Source: Infirmifilum sp. | GTDB taxonomy: Archaea > Thermoproteota > Thermoprotei > Thermofilales > Thermofilaceae | Length of the DNA: 64,000 nucleotides | Direction: 5' to 3' | Assembly: GCA_041287245.1 (NCBI GenBank) | Contig: JBEULP010000058.1 | Coordinates: forward strand, 1 to 64,000 | Part shown: piece after piece, positions 16,275-63,839 of the stretch | How positions within the stretch are numbered: the stretch's first letter is position 1 | How the letters are laid out: each line of letters opens with the position of its first letter | Program-made: the position numbers and the translations under genes | Notes under the pieces: generated by a model | Told to the model about the DNA's origin: nothing | The model's input: only the letters and a program-made list of their open reading frames with translations | Databases searched by the model: none

Positions 16275-16369
16275 GCGGCCGTAGTCTAGTCTGGAAGGAT
16301 GGCGGCCTGCCACGCCGCAGAGCCCTGTCGACGGCGCGGAGAACCCGGGTTCAAATCCCGGCGGCCGCA
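16275..16369 (+). tRNA. tRNA-Gly(GCC) with 21-nt intron in the variable loop (16321-16341)
   Basis: GCGGCCG/CGGCCGC acceptor stem, GCGGC-CTGCCAC-GCCGC anticodon arm, CCGGG-TTCAAAT-CCCGG T arm; insert flanked by AGA bulges and a CCGC/GCGG helix. Confidence 0.93.
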
Positions 16370-18230: not shown

Positions 18231-18413
18231 TTAGAATTCCTCCTCTTCTTCCTCTTCCTCCCAGCCTTCCTCCTCTTCTTCCTCCTCTTCTTCTAGGAAT
18301 TCCTCTTCTTCGCCAAAGTCCTCCCATTCTTCTTCCTCTTCTTCCTCTTCGCCGAACTCTTCTTCCCATTCCTCATCTTCTTCGCTAAAGGCGTAAGGTT
18401 TCATGGTTATCAA
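18231..18413 (-). CDS. tiny hyperacidic protein
   Basis: Poly-Glu ORF punctuated by W/F; AT-rich promoter-like sequence upstream. Confidence 0.6.
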   Translation of the reverse strand: MITMKPYAFSEEDEEWEEEFGEEEEEEEEWEDFGEEEEFLEEEEEEEEEGWEEEEEEEEF

Positions 18414-31331: not shown

Positions 31332-31525
31332 ATGATGTCTGAAAAGCTGTTGAGACCTAAGGATGTTTGTGAGAGGCTTGGGATAAGCTATACTACTCTT
31401 CGCAGGTGGATTCAGGCTGGTTATATCAAGGCTGTTAAAACTGTCGGTGGCAGAGGAGCCACAAGAAAAAGAAGCTTGCAGAGGGATTCAAAAAGCTTTT
31501 AGAAGAGGTTGAGAAAAATGGTTAG
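31332..31525 (+). pseudogene. tnpA: IS607 serine-recombinase transposase with internal deletion
   Basis: MSEKLLRPKDVCERLGISYTTLRRWIQAGYIKAVKTVGG joined out of frame to RSHKKKKLAEGFKKLLEEVEKNG*; catalytic YARVS domain absent. Confidence 0.85.
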
Positions 31526-32822
31526 AGTAACAAGAACGGTTGTTGTTGAGAGCGTGAGATTGCCGAGGAAGGTGTTCAGGGTCTTCGTAGAGCTTGAAGG
31601 AATGTATAGAAATATGGTTGAGCAACTAGTCCTCTACGCTGTTAGAGAAGGTGTGAAGTCTTTTACAAAGCTTAAAGCGTCGAGATACAAGGATTTGAGA
31701 AAACTGTACCCTCTCTTGCCAAGCCACTATGTGTACACGGCGTGTCAAGACGCTAGTGTTAGGGCTAAGAGTTTTCTCAGGCTGAAGAAGCTTGGTCTTG
31801 CTGAAAAAGAGTATCCAGAGGTTAGAAGAGTCTCTATATGGCTTGACGATCACTTGTGGAAGCTGGATGGGTATACTAGAGTTAAAATCGCTACACACAA
31901 AGAGTGGATAAGTGTTGATTTGGAGCCCTATAAACAGTACTGGAGATATCTTAACGGTGGGTGGAGACTTGCTAGCGAGGCGAGGTTAAGACTGGATAGG
32001 AGGAGTAGACAGCTCATAATCCACCTAACATTTGTTAAAAATGTTGAAGAGTACGAGCCTAGAGGTTTCACAGCTGTTGATGTTAACGAGAACAACATTA
32101 CTATGCTCCTCGATGGCGATGTATTTCTCTTTGAAACAGGTTTGAAGAAAAATGTTCTCGGCTACTACTATAGGAGGATGAGAGTTCAGGAGAAATATGA
32201 TAAGTTCTATGGCGTGAATTCTAGGGTTAGGAGAAAAGTTTTGAGGAGGCTTAAAGAGAGGAAGAAGAATGATGTTAAGTGGAAGATTGCAAACATCATC
32301 GTTAGGACAGCTCATAAAAAACAGTATGCTGTTGTTTTGGAGAAACTTGGTAGATCCCCTGCTAAGAAAATGATTGGGAAAATTGAAGACAGCCAGCTTA
32401 GGCATAGAATCTATCAAGCGTCTTTCAAAGGTGTCCAGAGAGCTATTGAGGAGAAGGCTAGAGAATACGGTGTCCCAGTAATATATGTAGACCCGAGGAA
32501 CACTTCGAAGACCTGCCCGATACACAACACACCTATAATCTATAGTTCTAGGATTGGGAGGTGCAATGGAGGTGGCGAGTTGTGGCATAGAGATGTTGTT
32601 GCGTGTTGGAACATACTACTCAGAGCCCGTCTAGGCGATGGGAGCAATGCTCCAAGCCTAGACGGGTTATCTGTAGATGGGAGTCCCATGCCGTTGGGCT
32701 CGACAGCCACCCATGAACCCATAGAGATAAGCAGATCCCTATGGGCGAGGTGGAAGTCCCTGGATATGAGAGAATATAAAAGAACGTCAATGATTATCAA
32801 GGGACAAACGGCTTCCCGATAG
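31518..32822 (+). CDS. tnpB: TnpB RNA-guided endonuclease
   Basis: RuvC-I AVDVNE, RuvC-II VVLEKL, VDPRNTSKTCPIH zinc ribbon, RuvC-III HRDVVACWNI; ATG at 31518. Confidence 0.92.
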   Translation: MVRVTRTVVVESVRLPRKVFRVFVELEGMYRNMVEQLVLYAVREGVKSFTKLKASRYKDLRKLYPLLPSHYVYTACQDASVRAKSFLRLKKLGLAEKEYPEVRRVSIWLDDHLWKLDGYTRVKIATHKEWISVDLEPYKQYWRYLNGGWRLASEARLRLDRRSRQLIIHLTFVKNVEEYEPRGFTAVDVNENNITMLLDGDVFLFETGLKKNVLGYYYRRMRVQEKYDKFYGVNSRVRRKVLRRLKERKKNDVKWKIANIIVRTAHKKQYAVVLEKLGRSPAKKMIGKIEDSQLRHRIYQASFKGVQRAIEEKAREYGVPVIYVDPRNTSKTCPIHNTPIIYSSRIGRCNGGGELWHRDVVACWNILLRARLGDGSNAPSLDGLSVDGSPMPLGSTATHEPIEISRSLWARWKSLDMREYKRTSMIIKGQTASR

Positions 32823-35979: not shown

Positions 35980-36243
35980 TTGTGGTGTTTCCTGACGAGC
36001 GTGTTCCAGGATCCTACTGTTGCTACAGTAAACATCGGGAAAAATGGTCTCAGCGAGAAGGTGATTGAGGAGATAGGGAACGTCTTGAAGACCCGTGGTC
36101 TCGTCAAAGTTAGGTTGCTGAAGAACTTTCTCGATGCTTATGGGTACACGCGTGAAGATGTGGCAGTTATTCTATCCGAGAGGCTCAACGCAGAGATTCT
36201 CGGGATAAGGGGGCATGTAATAGCTTTGAAGAAGAGGATGTGA
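35980..36243 (+). CDS. yhbY: YhbY/CRM RNA-binding protein
   Basis: VNIGKNGL, GLVKVRLL, IRGH. Confidence 0.88.
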   Translation: MWCFLTSVFQDPTVATVNIGKNGLSEKVIEEIGNVLKTRGLVKVRLLKNFLDAYGYTREDVAVILSERLNAEILGIRGHVIALKKRM

Positions 36244-36253
36244 AAGTTTTCAT

Positions 36254-36357
36254 CTTTGAATTCATTCCTTTCTCATACTGTTTCTTTTGTTTTTGTTTTA
36301 GCTTTCTTTTTATTGTTGTTTTGTCTTCTCTTGATTTTTAAATGTCGCGGCGGCTTT
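36254..36357 (-). CRISPR. orphan CRISPR leader-like sequence plus single repeat (copy B)
   Basis: Minus strand GTATGAGAAAGGAATGAATTCAAAG (36278-36254) preceded by an A-rich tract with GCGACATTTAAAAATCAAG, homologous to 62083-62216. Confidence 0.6.
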
Positions 36358-36740
36358 AAGTCTTTAAGCGGGGAGACTCACGCGCTAAGGGCTCACCCCC
36401 GGCTAGTCGCGCTCGCCGTACCAGGCTGAGCAGCCCCCATCTCCCAGGGAGGGGCCACCACTCAAGGTGGGAAGGTGTGCGGGGCAGGGAGAAAAACCTT
36501 ATTTTTAGGGGTTCCCGGGATTCCCCCTATGCGCTGGTAGGCTTTGTCGGGAGCTCTGCGCCCCCCCCCCCCCCGGCTTGTTCTTCCCCCGGGCACCCTG
36601 AGGGGTTGGTGGGCGCCTGGCCGGAGGTGCATTGGGCTCATAGCCGGGGCGCCTCGGCTTGCCTGGTGGGTGAAGGGGTCACAGCTGTGCTCAGTGCACA
36701 ACCCGCCCCCTCAGTGGCTGTATAGTATATTGTTTAAACT

Positions 36741-36788
36741 CTGACCTCCTCCCCGCCCTAAAAGGGCGAGGCTTTCAGCTTATGTAAA
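36741..36788 (-). mobile_element. isolated IS200/IS605-type end hairpin (MITE/PATE-like remnant)
   Basis: Minus strand GCTGAAAGCCTCGCCCTTTTAGGGCGGGGAGGAGGTCAG: imperfect hairpin plus GGAGGTCA tail typical of archaeal IS605 ends. Confidence 0.7.
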
Positions 36789-36899
36789 TCCATTTTTGCA
36801 AAGGTGGCATATGACCACGTGGTCCTCGATAGTAAGAAAAATTAACCCCACCGCCGGATTACGCGCGCCTCAAGGCAGCCTCCCGGGCCACGAAGGAAG

Positions 36900-36972
36900 A
36901 GGAGCTTAGGGGCAGGCTGTACGAGCTTATAACGAAGCTACAGCTATTAGCAACACAGCTGTAACAATAAAA
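36900..36972 (+). repeat. dispersed 73-bp repeat, copy 1
   Basis: 59/73 ungapped identity (hand count) to 44452-44524. Confidence 0.8.
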
Positions 36973-36978
36973 TTTTTT

Positions 36979-37755
36979 CTATCGCGCATCAACTAGCCTC
37001 AAGTAACGTATGTAGCCGAAGTCGAAGATACCCGCATCTAAATCAACAGCGTATGCCCTAAAATTCTCAATATTTGCTTCGCGGAGAAGGGGGGATAGGA
37101 GACTTCTTTCAATGTTAACCTCCGTACCAGGCATTAGGGGGCTGAGGGCTGGCAGTACTAAAACCCTCTTCCCCATGTATTCTCCATCGAGTAGAGCTTT
37201 AAGCTTCACTCGGGCACCCAACTCGTCGCGTAAGGTTAAAGCTGGGTGTTCATGCCCCATCACTATTGTCTTAACTTTCTCTTCAAACCCTTCTATAGGC
37301 AACGGTTTGTGTCCATGGAATAAAAGGATTTCACCCTCTAGGAGGTAGGGGTCATGCAATGGAATGTTCATTTTCTTCAACAGCGATATAAGATAGTTGT
37401 CATGATTACCGCGCACAACATCTATTTTCAACTTAAGATCCTCGAGGAGATAAGATAGGAGCTCGCTAGTCTCACGCCACTCCTGCCTTGTAACATCGCC
37501 GAACTCGTGCTTTATGTCGCCCAGCAAAATTATCCTCGAGGCGGCGGTCTCGTCGACCATCCTAGCTAGCATCTCTCGTATCTCCGAGGCTTGAACGGGC
37601 GGGATGAAAATCCCATCCTCCGAGAGAGCCTCCTCATAACCTATGTGTAGATCCGCAACCACAAGAGCATTAAGCCTTTTCAAGTAAAGCCCAAGACCCA
37701 CTATCTCCAAGTCCTTTGACAGGGCTAGACGAGGGACTCCTATGGACTCAGGCAT
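36979..37755 (-). CDS. calcineurin-like metallophosphoesterase
   Basis: ADLHIGYE, LGDIKH, RGNHD, HGH, GHEHP. Confidence 0.9.
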   Translation of the reverse strand: MPESIGVPRLALSKDLEIVGLGLYLKRLNALVVADLHIGYEEALSEDGIFIPPVQASEIREMLARMVDETAASRIILLGDIKHEFGDVTRQEWRETSELLSYLLEDLKLKIDVVRGNHDNYLISLLKKMNIPLHDPYLLEGEILLFHGHKPLPIEGFEEKVKTIVMGHEHPALTLRDELGARVKLKALLDGEYMGKRVLVLPALSPLMPGTEVNIERSLLSPLLREANIENFRAYAVDLDAGIFDFGYIRYLRLVDAR

Positions 37756-44451: not shown

Positions 44452-44524
44452 AGGAGCATAGGGACAGGCTCTACGAGCTTATAACAGAGCTACATCTCCT
44501 AGCAGCCAAACCATAACAATAAAA
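44452..44524 (+). repeat. dispersed 73-bp repeat, copy 2
   Basis: Homologous to 36900-36972. Confidence 0.8.
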
Positions 44525-44535
44525 ATATTTTTTTC

Positions 44536-46443
44536 TCACTCGATTTTTTGCACTCGACGCGCGCGACGGCGTGTTTTACGAGATCTATTAGCACTCTTCT
44601 TCCTTGCGTCTTCGCCTGAAGCTGCCGAATAAACCTCAGCTATGACTGGTACGAGTTTCTCAGAGACATAGTCGATTCTCGCCGAGAGATTTTCATAAAA
44701 TTCGAGGAAGGACTCCTTTATCTCAGCTACTACTTCTCCCGGCTCTCGCTCTCCACTGGCTATTTTTGCAAGTTGCGACTCCATGTTTCCCCGAATCTCC
44801 GGCAAGACAAGCCGCGGCTCTACCTCTAGAAGAGACAGGATAAGCGTTTTACCTAGAGGCGTCGGGATACATCTCTTATCACGAATAGTGAAATATTTCC
44901 TCTCGATATTCGTGTGGATATGGTCTTGCATAGTAGCATCGGTGCCAATGCCATACCTTTTCATTAGTGAGAGGAGCTCGCTCTCGCTTAGGTAGGGCGG
45001 GGGCTGGGTGGTCCTTTCTTCCAGCTTAACATTTTTCACTGCTAGCTCATCTCCCTCTACTAGGTATGGTAGGGGTTTTTCCTCTGGCCTGGCGTAATAA
45101 TAAACATGGTAAAACCCGGGGTAGACTATACGCTTTCCCTCAGCGGATAGCTCAACACCCCCTAGTTTTACCTTGATCCTCTGCCGTTCTACCTGCGCCT
45201 TCTCGCTTATAGTTGCGAGAAAGTGTCGGGCGACTAACTCGTAGACCTTCCAGGCTTTGGGGCCCATAGACCTCTCAATCTGGGCGCGCGGGGCTGATCT
45301 AGTCGGGTGGATAGGCGGGTGTGCCTTGTCGTCTTCTCTACCCCGCGTGGGGGTAAAGCCGGCGGCTAAGATTTTAGATACATACCAGCCGATGTCCTCC
45401 CAGCTTGTAAACATGGATGCTAGGGATTTAAGATTGAGAGTAGGAGGGTAGATCGTCGTCTCCGTCCTAGGGTAGGATATATAGCCATACTGGTATAACC
45501 TCTCAGCTATGGCTAACGCCTCCTTCGGCCTTATGTTTAGAAAAGCTGAGGCGCGGCTCTCAAAGTCAACCGTGTTTAGAGGAATAGGTGGATGAACGTC
45601 TATGATCTCAGCCTCTGCCGACGTAACTGTGGCACGCTGCATTCCTTTCAGGGTGTTGTAGAGGTAAACAGCCTTCTCTTTATCCTCCCCGAGATTAATG
45701 GAGGCTGAAAAGACGTGCCCGTCGGCTTCAAGCTCGGCTGTTAAAACGTAGTATTTCTTCTTCTTAAACTGTTCACGTTCAAGGTCTCGTTTAACGACTA
45801 AATAGAGAACTGGAGTCTGGCACGGACCGTAACTAAGGAAACTTCCGAGGGGCAGGGCTGACTTACGTTTTTGGACTGCAAGGGTCAGGAGGCGTGTGAA
45901 GGATGCGCCTATGGTTAGATCAACTACCATCCGCGCAAATACTTTCTTAGCCCAAAGCTCGTTTGGCTCGCGAAGTTGTTTAAAGGCGCTAATAATATCG
46001 CTTCTCGTAACAGCGGAGAACCATGCGCGCTTAAACTCTAATGAAGCGTTTACCTGACTCATAATCTTTATAACTTCGAAGGCTATGCCTTCCCCCTCGA
46101 CGTCCGCGTCTAGAGCCAGAATAACAGTAGACGTTTGTGTTGCAAGGGACTGCAAAGCCTTTACGTATTTATAGGCGCCTTCGCGAGTAACCTGTATAGG
46201 GTTTATGTAGAATAACTGCTTCGGATCGGTAGAGTCCCACTTGTTGTATTCTCGGGGAAAATCGTAGTCTAAGATGTGCCCGATGAGGCCTATCGACAAG
46301 TACGTATCGCCGCTGTGTTTGAATACGAAGCTCTTAACACCGTTCACATAAACGGTTCTATAGCCACCCTCAGCGAGATAACGTGCAAAGGCAAGCGCCA
46401 CTGCAGGCTTCTCAGCCACGATAACGGCCTTGTACATTAGCAC
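44536..46443 (-). CDS. topA: type IA DNA topoisomerase (archaeal TopA/Top3)
   Basis: AEKP, DADVEGE, ISYPRT, AHPPIHPT, GIGTDAT. Confidence 0.95.
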   Translation of the reverse strand: MLMYKAVIVAEKPAVALAFARYLAEGGYRTVYVNGVKSFVFKHSGDTYLSIGLIGHILDYDFPREYNKWDSTDPKQLFYINPIQVTREGAYKYVKALQSLATQTSTVILALDADVEGEGIAFEVIKIMSQVNASLEFKRAWFSAVTRSDIISAFKQLREPNELWAKKVFARMVVDLTIGASFTRLLTLAVQKRKSALPLGSFLSYGPCQTPVLYLVVKRDLEREQFKKKKYYVLTAELEADGHVFSASINLGEDKEKAVYLYNTLKGMQRATVTSAEAEIIDVHPPIPLNTVDFESRASAFLNIRPKEALAIAERLYQYGYISYPRTETTIYPPTLNLKSLASMFTSWEDIGWYVSKILAAGFTPTRGREDDKAHPPIHPTRSAPRAQIERSMGPKAWKVYELVARHFLATISEKAQVERQRIKVKLGGVELSAEGKRIVYPGFYHVYYYARPEEKPLPYLVEGDELAVKNVKLEERTTQPPPYLSESELLSLMKRYGIGTDATMQDHIHTNIERKYFTIRDKRCIPTPLGKTLILSLLEVEPRLVLPEIRGNMESQLAKIASGEREPGEVVAEIKESFLEFYENLSARIDYVSEKLVPVIAEVYSAASGEDARKKSANRSRKTRRRARRVQKIE

Positions 46444-52146: not shown

Positions 52147-52303
52147 TATACATTTTCATCGTCTAAGCCCACTATTTTTTCTTATTCATCGCATGTGCTA
52201 TTTGAGCTTCCTAGAACCCTAGAAAATGCTTGTACGGTATACGAAAAATCGCGCGTATTACATGGTTAAGATGGGGTCGAGCCCTTGGCGCGTGTGCCTC
52301 ACC

Positions 52304-52328
52304 ATATCAGAAAAGAATGAATTGAAGG
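52304..52328 (+). repeat. solitary CRISPR-like repeat (copy C, no leader)
   Basis: ATATCAGAAAAGAATGAATTGAAGG, 22/25 identical to 62192-62216. Confidence 0.6.
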
Positions 52329-62038: not shown

Positions 62039-62082
62039 ACTAGTCTCAGTGCTCGTGGTTATTATTTCCAAACTGTATCGCC

Positions 62083-62216
62083 AAAGCCGCGGGCGACATT
62101 TAAAAATCAAGGAAAACAAGACACCAATAAAAAGAAAGCCAAAAAATAAAACCAAATAACCCAAACAAGTAATAAAAAACCAAGAGAAACAGTATAAGAA
62201 AAGAATGAATTGAAAG
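62083..62216 (+). CRISPR. orphan CRISPR leader-like sequence plus single repeat (copy A)
   Basis: A-rich tract with TATA-like TTTAAAAA followed by GTATAAGAAAAGAATGAATTGAAAG (62192-62216), which ends in the ATTGAAAG typical of archaeal repeats. Confidence 0.65.
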
Positions 62217-63735: not shown

Positions 63736-63839
63736 AGCCCCGGCCGGGATTTGAACCCGGGACCTCCGCCTTTTTGGTGCGTGGTGACCAGCAGGGCTAG
63801 TTACCAAGGCGGCGCTCCGCCAGTCTGAGCTACCGGGGC
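63736..63839 (-). tRNA. tRNA-Thr(GGT) with 30-nt canonical 37/38 intron (63772-63801)
   Basis: GCCCCGG/CCGGGGC acceptor stem, CCGCC-TTGGTA^A-GGCGG anticodon arm, TTCAAAT T loop; TTGG/CCAA central BHB helix. Confidence 0.93.

What the first reader, a model, noticed from the sequence alone, without database searches (positions are those of the whole stretch)
36254..36357. Second leader plus solo repeat unit, again facing the 3' end of a convergent gene (yhbY)
Seen: the minus-strand copy shares GCGACATTTAAAAATCAAG, CAATAAAAAGAAAGC and AGAAACA with copy A, lacks about 30 nt of the middle, and has a repeat 22/25 identical (GTATGAGAAAGGAATGAATTCAAAG) ending 10 nt from the yhbY stop. Inference: two independent loci with the same architecture, both at translation or RNA-related genes, suggest a dispersed family of leader-repeat cassettes, either mobile or selected, and not a single accident. 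The G-to-C change in the 3' handle could alter processing.
Basis: partly seen in the sequence, partly recalled or inferred. Interest (0 to 1): 0.72.

Follow-up and report, generated by a model that had tools for sequence, protein, structure and literature searches.

The report
Stray, decaying CRISPR array seed
This is a stray copy of a CRISPR leader with one repeat and no spacer, inserted behind a housekeeping gene of a hot-spring archaeon; it is likely a decaying seed of a new array rather than a purpose-built regulator, and it shows that such seeds are scattered through this genome.

Summary
It belongs to a real dispersed family: 9 stray single repeats in this genome, 3 with a recognisable leader. 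The site is empty in 7 of 7 same-genus genomes. A third copy (contig C64) shares about 190 nt and both repeat mutations with this one, so the unit was copied after it had mutated. A closed relative (G001) has 8 leader copies with 1-11 repeats and unshared spacers. Any insert between convergent genes faces a 3' end; C64 and a copy at 52304 face 5' ends; pooled, 9 of 17 face a 3' end; the neighbours are not mostly RNA genes. Leader deletions and mutations in the 8-nt handle point to decay. Best reading: a spacer-less, damaged array seed in a tolerant gap. A self-safe antisense Cmr guide against yhbY is feasible but unsupported. No RNA data. Noticed in passing: strand-asymmetric base composition flanking arrays of this repeat family.

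The parts
36254..36278 (-). Single CRISPR repeat, two changes from the array repeat (positions 5 and 21; position 21 lies in the 8-nt handle)
36279..36357 (-). A-rich proximal leader, 30 nt shorter than copy A, with a TATA-like box at 36335-36342 (promoter role inferred). Its plus strand is a T-rich tract behind the yhbY stop
36358..36506 (-). GC-rich distal part shared with the C64 copy (98.9% over 36358-36445; 77% over 36455-36506). Carries the hexamer seen about 110 nt upstream of arrays of this repeat family (36379-36384); likely distal leader
36507..36738 (.). Unique GC-rich non-coding stretch of the insertion; no other copy in the genome; folding not above shuffles
36728..36871 (-). IS200/IS605-type end hairpin (36739-36778; 21 matches in the genome) with a sub-threshold HgcC-like match; likely an independent insertion
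36900..36983 (.). Second small dispersed element, 8 matches in the genome (one at window 44452-44536)
35980..36243 (+). yhbY (CRS1/YhbY domain), the convergent neighbour
36979..37755 (-). Metallophosphoesterase gene; abuts yhbY in relatives
62061..62216 (+). Copy A: longer leader plus single repeat, directly abutting the stop codon of prolyl-tRNA synthetase
52273..52328 (+). Eroded family member: the GC box of copy B joined directly to a repeat, with the A-rich leader lost; lies between divergent genes

Best explanation
It is an orphan CRISPR leader plus one repeat with no spacer, inserted into the short yhbY-phosphoesterase gap, and likely a damaged seed of a new array that is now decaying. 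Shown: leader and repeat are homologous to the genome's cas-linked ones, the site is empty in relatives, and the unit was copied to or from contig C64 with its mutations. Inferred: leader-repeat units are copied about the chromosome by recombination, possibly helped by Cas1 cuts at the repeat ends, and they survive where no promoter or coding sequence is hit. Intact ones gain their own spacers, as in G001; mutated ones such as this lose leader bases and end as bare repeats. The T-rich opposite strand may make landing behind a stop codon harmless by supplying a terminator (inferred).
For: Five leader copies stand out in a profile search: two cas-linked and A, B, C64; the next best hit is E 0.0018 and has no repeat. 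Empty site in 7 of 7 same-genus genomes. B and C64 share both repeat changes, and their homology ends at the last base of the repeat. Graded erosion: A 109-nt proximal leader, B 79, C64 51, window 52304 none. Changes in the handle are no rarer than elsewhere in the repeat (4 of 64 vs 13 of 128 positions, p 0.43). G001 has 8 leader copies, 75-97% alike, with 1-11 repeats and 25 spacers, none shared between loci. Two of its three cas-distant sites have the same gene pair without an array in relatives: alaS-NAC in 3 of 6 genomes, hypF-prs in 2 of 6. A leader plus one repeat suffices for adaptation, also at an ectopic site, in a type II-A system (PMC4330368, passages).
Against: The copying mechanism is not shown: no terminal inverted repeats, and only a 6-nt TSD-like match at C64. 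In this genome 7 of 9 stray repeats face a 3' end, mostly within 0-25 nt of the stop, and 5 of 9 lie in convergent gaps, while IS ends in the same genome do not (2-3 of 21), so some selection on position is possible. The TATA-like box is kept in A, B and C64. Relatives are only 52-77% identical in YhbY, so a short-lived array here cannot be excluded. Five of the eight G001 loci are next to cas genes and are not true orphans.
Confidence: 0.6

Rival explanations
1. Collapsed array: an array once stood here and lost all spacers by recombination between its first and last repeat, leaving the leader and one repeat.
For: The end product would look the same. Small arrays at ordinary intergenic sites exist in G001. 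Two degenerate positions fit a worn terminal repeat.
Against: No relative has a repeat at the site. B and C64 share derived changes, so at least one arrived as a spacer-less copy. The flank skew seen beside arrays of this repeat family is missing at B: phosphoesterase third positions +0.01, yhbY -0.29 (the opposite sign), against -0.6 to -0.97 beside G001 arrays. This test has limited power, since the cas-linked genes of G000 show only -0.25 and -0.52.
Confidence: 0.17
2. Selected antisense guide: the leader drives a transcript, Cas6 cuts the repeat, and the 8-nt tag plus the antisense of the yhbY 3' end (about 36218-36253) guides type III-B Cmr to cut yhbY mRNA, while tag pairing blocks attack on the DNA.
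For: The genome has Cas6, type I-A, III-B and III-D-like modules. The geometry gives a perfectly complementary guide with a matching tag. In Sulfolobus a handle-matched target escapes DNA interference but its mRNA is cut (PMC4005642, passages). 7 of 9 stray repeats face a 3' end.
Against: The tag is mutated in B and doubly so in C64. The unit is not conserved in any relative. The orientation bias does not carry over to G001. There is no functional theme among neighbours, and no match of the 40 nt after any repeat to another site beyond 15 nt.
Confidence: 0.07
3. Exapted terminator: the unit is kept because the T-rich opposite strand of the leader ends yhbY (and proS) transcripts after the native gap was disrupted.
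For: 16 T in 20 nt behind the yhbY stop, matched by 0.3% of 1765 gene ends; 15 of 20 behind proS. U-rich termination in archaea is recalled, not from a call.
Against: It explains neither the repeat nor the copies that face 5' ends or have lost the leader. No hairpin above shuffles (z -0.08). Relatives manage without it.
Confidence: 0.08
4. Passenger of an IS200/IS605 element or a MITE: the neighbouring IS end carried the leader-repeat in.
For: An IS605-type end and a second small element lie in the same insertion.
Against: C64 and A have no such element nearby. The IS end points into the GC-rich part as its flank. No terminal inverted repeats or target duplication around the unit.
Confidence: 0.05
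5. Assembly artefact of a metagenome-assembled genome.
For: 119 contigs, 5% contamination. Other repeat loci of this assembly look chimeric (C17, C19, C35). One run's contig joins yhbY to the C64 helicase through the shared part.
Against: The repeat variant is not the array's. Both outer flanks keep the gene order of relatives. The yhbY-repeat junction recurs in three runs at chromosomal depth.
Confidence: 0.03

Closest known systems
Minimal leader-repeat (L-R) unit competent for spacer acquisition (Wei et al. 2015, PMC4330368; passages read)
   Same: Leader followed by one repeat, away from cas genes.
   Different: Natural, archaeal, type I-A/III context, with a shortened leader and a mutated repeat; activity untested.
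Standalone repeats and mini-arrays giving crRNA-like regulators (Shmakov et al., 10.1101/2023.03.03.530964; passages read)
   Same: One repeat like the array's, no second repeat.
   Different: Those lie in or near cas loci, are conserved between related loci, mostly lack the adaptation leader and pair with cas promoters. This one is cas-distant, lineage-specific and keeps a leader, and no such target was found.
Racr solitary repeat units of viruses (PMC10651486; search listing only)
   Same: Single repeat that could load Cas proteins.
   Different: Chromosomal, between core genes; no match in viral contigs.
Dispersed leader plus short-repeat loci of Methanocaldococcus jannaschii and leader-repeat units of Sulfolobales (recalled; not found in my searches)
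   Same: Many leader copies spread over one archaeal genome, some with one repeat.
   Different: Here most copies are eroded; within-genome copying of a mutated unit is visible.
Neo-CRISPR arrays by off-target integration (Nivala 2018, seen only as described in passages of 10.1101/148544)
   Same: New array seeds at ectopic sites.
   Different: Here the native repeat and leader themselves are moved; in neo-CRISPRs a local sequence becomes the repeat (that detail recalled).

Membership tests
CRISPR array | At least two repeats separated by a spacer | tested here: not met
   One repeat; host sequence follows within 10 nt
Orphan leader-repeat unit | Leader homologous to the leaders of cas-linked arrays | tested here: met
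   78-82% to the C35 and C85 leaders over aligned bases; profile E 9e-19, but B was in the profile
Orphan leader-repeat unit | Repeat of the host's array family directly after the leader | tested here: met
   23/25 to the C85 array repeat
Orphan leader-repeat unit | Able to acquire spacers | not testable with these tools
   No spacer in this assembly, and none reported in contigs of three runs
crRNA-like regulator (mini-array / SRU) | Located in or near a cas locus | tested here: not met
   cas genes lie on contigs C85, C35, C18, C91; the neighbours here are housekeeping genes
crRNA-like regulator (mini-array / SRU) | Conserved at the orthologous site in related genomes | tested here: not met
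   Empty in 7 of 7 same-genus genomes
crRNA-like regulator (mini-array / SRU) | Guide partly complementary to a cas or cargo promoter | tested here: inconclusive
   Best match elsewhere 15 nt, E 0.039; only 12-13-nt chance-level matches on a cas contig. Short seeds cannot be excluded
crRNA-like regulator (mini-array / SRU) | Expressed and processed by Cas6 | not testable with these tools
   No RNA holder listed
Racr (viral SRU) | Encoded on a virus or other mobile element | tested here: not met
   0 matches in viral contigs for two patterns; flanks are core genes
MITE / IS-derived element | Terminal inverted repeats or IS ends bounding the unit | tested here: not met
   None bounding the unit; the IS end lies 230 nt outside the part shared with C64
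MITE / IS-derived element | Target site duplication | tested here: inconclusive
   4 nt at A and B, 6 nt at C64; boundaries uncertain

The most novel reading that the evidence does not exclude
Leader-repeat units in these archaea are self-spreading array seeds: the Cas1-Cas2-Cas4 integrase joins the repeat's far end to chromosomal DNA as if it were a spacer, planting new arrays around the genome. Those that land facing a gene end automatically yield perfectly matched, DNA-safe Cmr guides that tune host mRNAs such as yhbY and proS.
Probability: 0.12. Interest if true: 0.75.

Novelty: new member of a known kind. Interest (0 to 1): 0.3.

Why it matters
As it stands it is a clear natural series of array birth and death: seeds with spacers in G001, and mutated, shrinking seeds and bare repeats here. 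How archaea come to carry many arrays with one leader type is not settled to my knowledge, and a copy made after mutation (B and C64) with a boundary at the repeat's last base is a handle on the mechanism. If the integrase moved the units, CRISPR loci would be weakly self-mobile. If the antisense guides were real, they would be natural endogenous mRNA silencing by type III. The skew noticed beside arrays may matter more than the finding itself, since it suggests that arrays bias mutation in neighbouring housekeeping genes.

Tried and rejected
RNA: no RNA holder listed; this says nothing about expression. Rfam at gathering thresholds found only two tRNAs in the window. A metagenome scan with the leader motif gave one chance match inside an unrelated coding sequence; viral scans gave none. 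A hairpin between the yhbY end and the repeat, and structure in the GC-rich part, were not above shuffles. The sigma-70 scan is not suited to archaea and found nothing relevant. An integrative element ending at the C64 copy was considered after one run's contig joined yhbY to the C64 helicase. Rejected as unproven: two other runs break at the repeat with both flanks present, and G005 has a helicase-like gene at the same place without the unit. Homology of the GC-rich part to cas-linked leaders was weak by alignment; only the hexamer and its position support it. It was not found in 40 other genomes apart from one weak hit (E 9e-4). A leader-junction pattern found nothing in G003, G004, G006, G007; these lack this repeat, so dispersal there is untested. 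Downstream skew did not correlate with array length (rho -0.06, n 19). Earlier scan findings: none in three look-ups. Two papers wanted for precedent were not held. The Thermofilum-related papers read did not mention leader-repeat units in the passages shown. No supplements were read; leader tables there may bear on novelty.

Full report
Observation. The repeat is 36254-36278 on the minus strand, 22/25 to copy A, 10 nt from the yhbY stop, and the three quoted motifs occur in both copies. B lacks 30 nt relative to A and is 92% identical over the rest; the match is far above shuffles. The repeat is 23/25 to the repeat of the array on contig C85, which follows cas3, cas2, csa1 and cas1 of a type I-A module. 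The host appears to be a Thermofilaceae-type crenarchaeon; this is inferred from gene content and from a titled record with the same repeat family.

Anatomy. In 7 of 7 same-genus genomes yhbY and the phosphoesterase gene are separated by a short gap without any repeat. Here about 735 nt lie between them: repeat, A-rich leader (to 36357), a GC-rich part (to about 36506), a unique GC-rich stretch, an IS200/IS605-type end with a sub-threshold HgcC-like match (21 matches in the genome) and another small dispersed element (8 matches). The link of HgcC to TnpB RNAs is recalled. The GC-rich part carries a hexamer 106 nt upstream of the repeat. The same hexamer lies 108-123 nt upstream in 11 of 20 upstream regions of this repeat family, which are not independent, so it is probably distal leader.

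The family. The genome has 9 stray single repeats: A, B, C64, C70, C6, C80, C96, C19:32956 and window 52304. I left out the C85 array, the two repeats at the end of C17, the cas-linked leader with one repeat on C35, the repeat-spacer-repeat in a DHH gene on C19, and a six-mismatch match in coding sequence on C18. A leader profile built from A, B, C35 and C85 finds these and C64 only, the next hit being E 0.0018 without a repeat. C64 shares about 190 nt with B, including both repeat changes, has lost a further 28 nt of leader and has a second handle change; the shared part stops at the repeat's last base. The 52304 copy joins B's GC box directly to a repeat (score 40, 0 of 1000 shuffles). Among the relatives aligned, none had a repeat at the orthologous places of A, C64, C70, C6, C96 or 52304, though gene order is not always kept; C80 and C19:32956 were not checked.

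Orientation. A and B lie between convergent genes, so either orientation faces a 3' end. With a crude ORF caller, 303 of 1719 gene gaps are convergent. Five of 9 stray repeats lie in such gaps (p 0.011; 4 of 8, p 0.037, without C80, whose partner is a fragment at a contig end). Seven of 9 face a 3' end (p 0.04-0.09). IS ends of the same genome show no such preference (2 of 21 by the automatic call, 3 with the window's own copy corrected). But C64 and 52304 face 5' ends, and in the closed genome G001 only 2 of 8 leader-headed loci face a 3' end; its three cas-distant loci all face 5' ends. Pooled, the count is 9 of 17 (p 0.28). Neighbours include metK, DUF460, an oxidoreductase, a family 4 glycosidase, a sugar kinase, KaiC and an HTH gene, so there is no RNA-gene theme. 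A large IS survey reports family-dependent preferences for convergent gaps (PMC9208149, passages).

Birth and decay. G001 carries 8 leader copies, 75-97% alike, with 1 to 11 repeats. Its 25 spacers are not shared between loci, and alaS-NAC and hypF-prs are adjacent without arrays in 3 and 2 of 6 other genomes; for the third site the gene order differs. So leader-headed units appear at new sites and fill independently, as expected if a leader and one repeat suffice (PMC4330368, passages; shown there for type II-A). In G000 the orphans instead shrink and mutate, and the handle is not detectably spared (p 0.43, a small sample ascertained by similarity). How the unit is copied is not shown: no inverted ends, no convincing target duplication. 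Host sequence follows the repeat almost at once at A (0 nt), C6 (4), B (10) and C96 (11), which fits either an integrase-made junction or collapse of an array. Three G001 arrays end in truncated repeats, which argues against a strict boundary.

A test against a long-lived array here. Beside arrays of this repeat family the top strand is A/C-rich on the leader side and G/T-rich on the trailer side (18 of 19 arrays downstream). This reaches into housekeeping genes: third codon positions are -0.97 in G001 alaS against about 0 in three orthologs. B's flanks show none of this. The test is suggestive only, because G000's own cas-linked genes show a milder signal.

Regulatory reading. The genome encodes Cas6 and a III-B Cmr module. 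A transcript from the leader, cut in the repeat, would carry the tag plus the antisense of the yhbY end. In Sulfolobus such handle-matched targets escape DNA attack while the mRNA is cut (PMC4005642, passages). This is feasible, but B's tag is mutated, the unit is lineage-specific, and it fails the location and conservation criteria of crRNA-like regulators (10.1101/2023.03.03.530964, passages). The T-rich opposite strand (top 0.3% of gene ends) could act as a terminator and make such insertions harmless.

Reliability. Contigs of three DNA runs from one study hold the yhbY-repeat junction. In two, contigs break at the repeat with both the yhbY and the C64 flank present. In one, yhbY is joined to the C64 helicase, most simply an assembler path, though a recombined form is not excluded.

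Verdict. A real, dispersed but ordinary kind of object: an orphan, damaged leader-repeat. Precedents in Methanocaldococcus and Sulfolobales are recalled; ten paper searches found no description of this family, nor of the flank skew (only), in a library that lacks most subscription papers. Interest 0.3.

Noticed in passing
L072:4317-7040, L074:5068-7425, L075:7190-7912, L073:9665-10495 (G001) and arrays in L167-L196: Strand-asymmetric composition around arrays of this repeat family: A/C-rich for 0.5-2 kb on the leader side, G/T-rich on the trailer side in 18 of 19 arrays. Third codon positions of G001 alaS run from -0.96 at the array-proximal end to about -0.3, against about 0 in orthologs without an array (baseline -0.07, sd 0.25, n 33). 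The polarity fits deamination of strands exposed by resection from integration nicks, or origin-like replication (both inferred). Possibly undescribed.
   Followed up: partly
L037:5412-6223 (G000 C19:46793-46881): Repeat-spacer-repeat replaces about 70 codons of a DHH gene, and the spacer is the antisense of that same gene at the junction. Either an assembly path through self-derived spacers or a real integrase-made junction at a chromosome break.
   Followed up: partly
L033:4939-5311 and L032:5247-5552: The cas-linked leader on C35 has one repeat that runs into the antisense of a truncated unknown ORF; C17 likewise. Possibly spacer-to-virus assembly chimeras; C17's nine ORFs have no Pfam match.
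   Followed up: partly
L034:2571-2595 (G000 C70): A bare repeat supplies the last codons and the stop of the DUF460 gene.
   Followed up: partly
window 36728-36871 and 36900-36983: IS200/IS605-type end with an HgcC-like match, and a second small element; both are dispersed families in this genome (21 and 8 matches). A TnpB-like gene lies at window 31509-32822.
   Followed up: partly
L039:20-9575 (G000 C64:6019-15574): Cluster with a VirB4/CedD-like ATPase, membrane proteins, ParA, a VirB11-like ATPase and a DinG-like helicase: a Ced-like DNA transfer locus beside the C64 copy.
   Followed up: partly
L071:4300-5450 (G001): Two divergent leaders flank what reads as a cas1 fragment (read from the sequence, not scanned), a likely collapsed cas locus; G005 has two divergent arrays around intact cas genes.
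   Followed up: no
window 18234-18380: Low-complexity tandem repeats of 9-21 nt, likely an acidic protein tract on the minus strand.
   Followed up: no
window 16275-16369 and 63736-63839: Two tRNA matches longer than the model, likely intron-containing.
   Followed up: no
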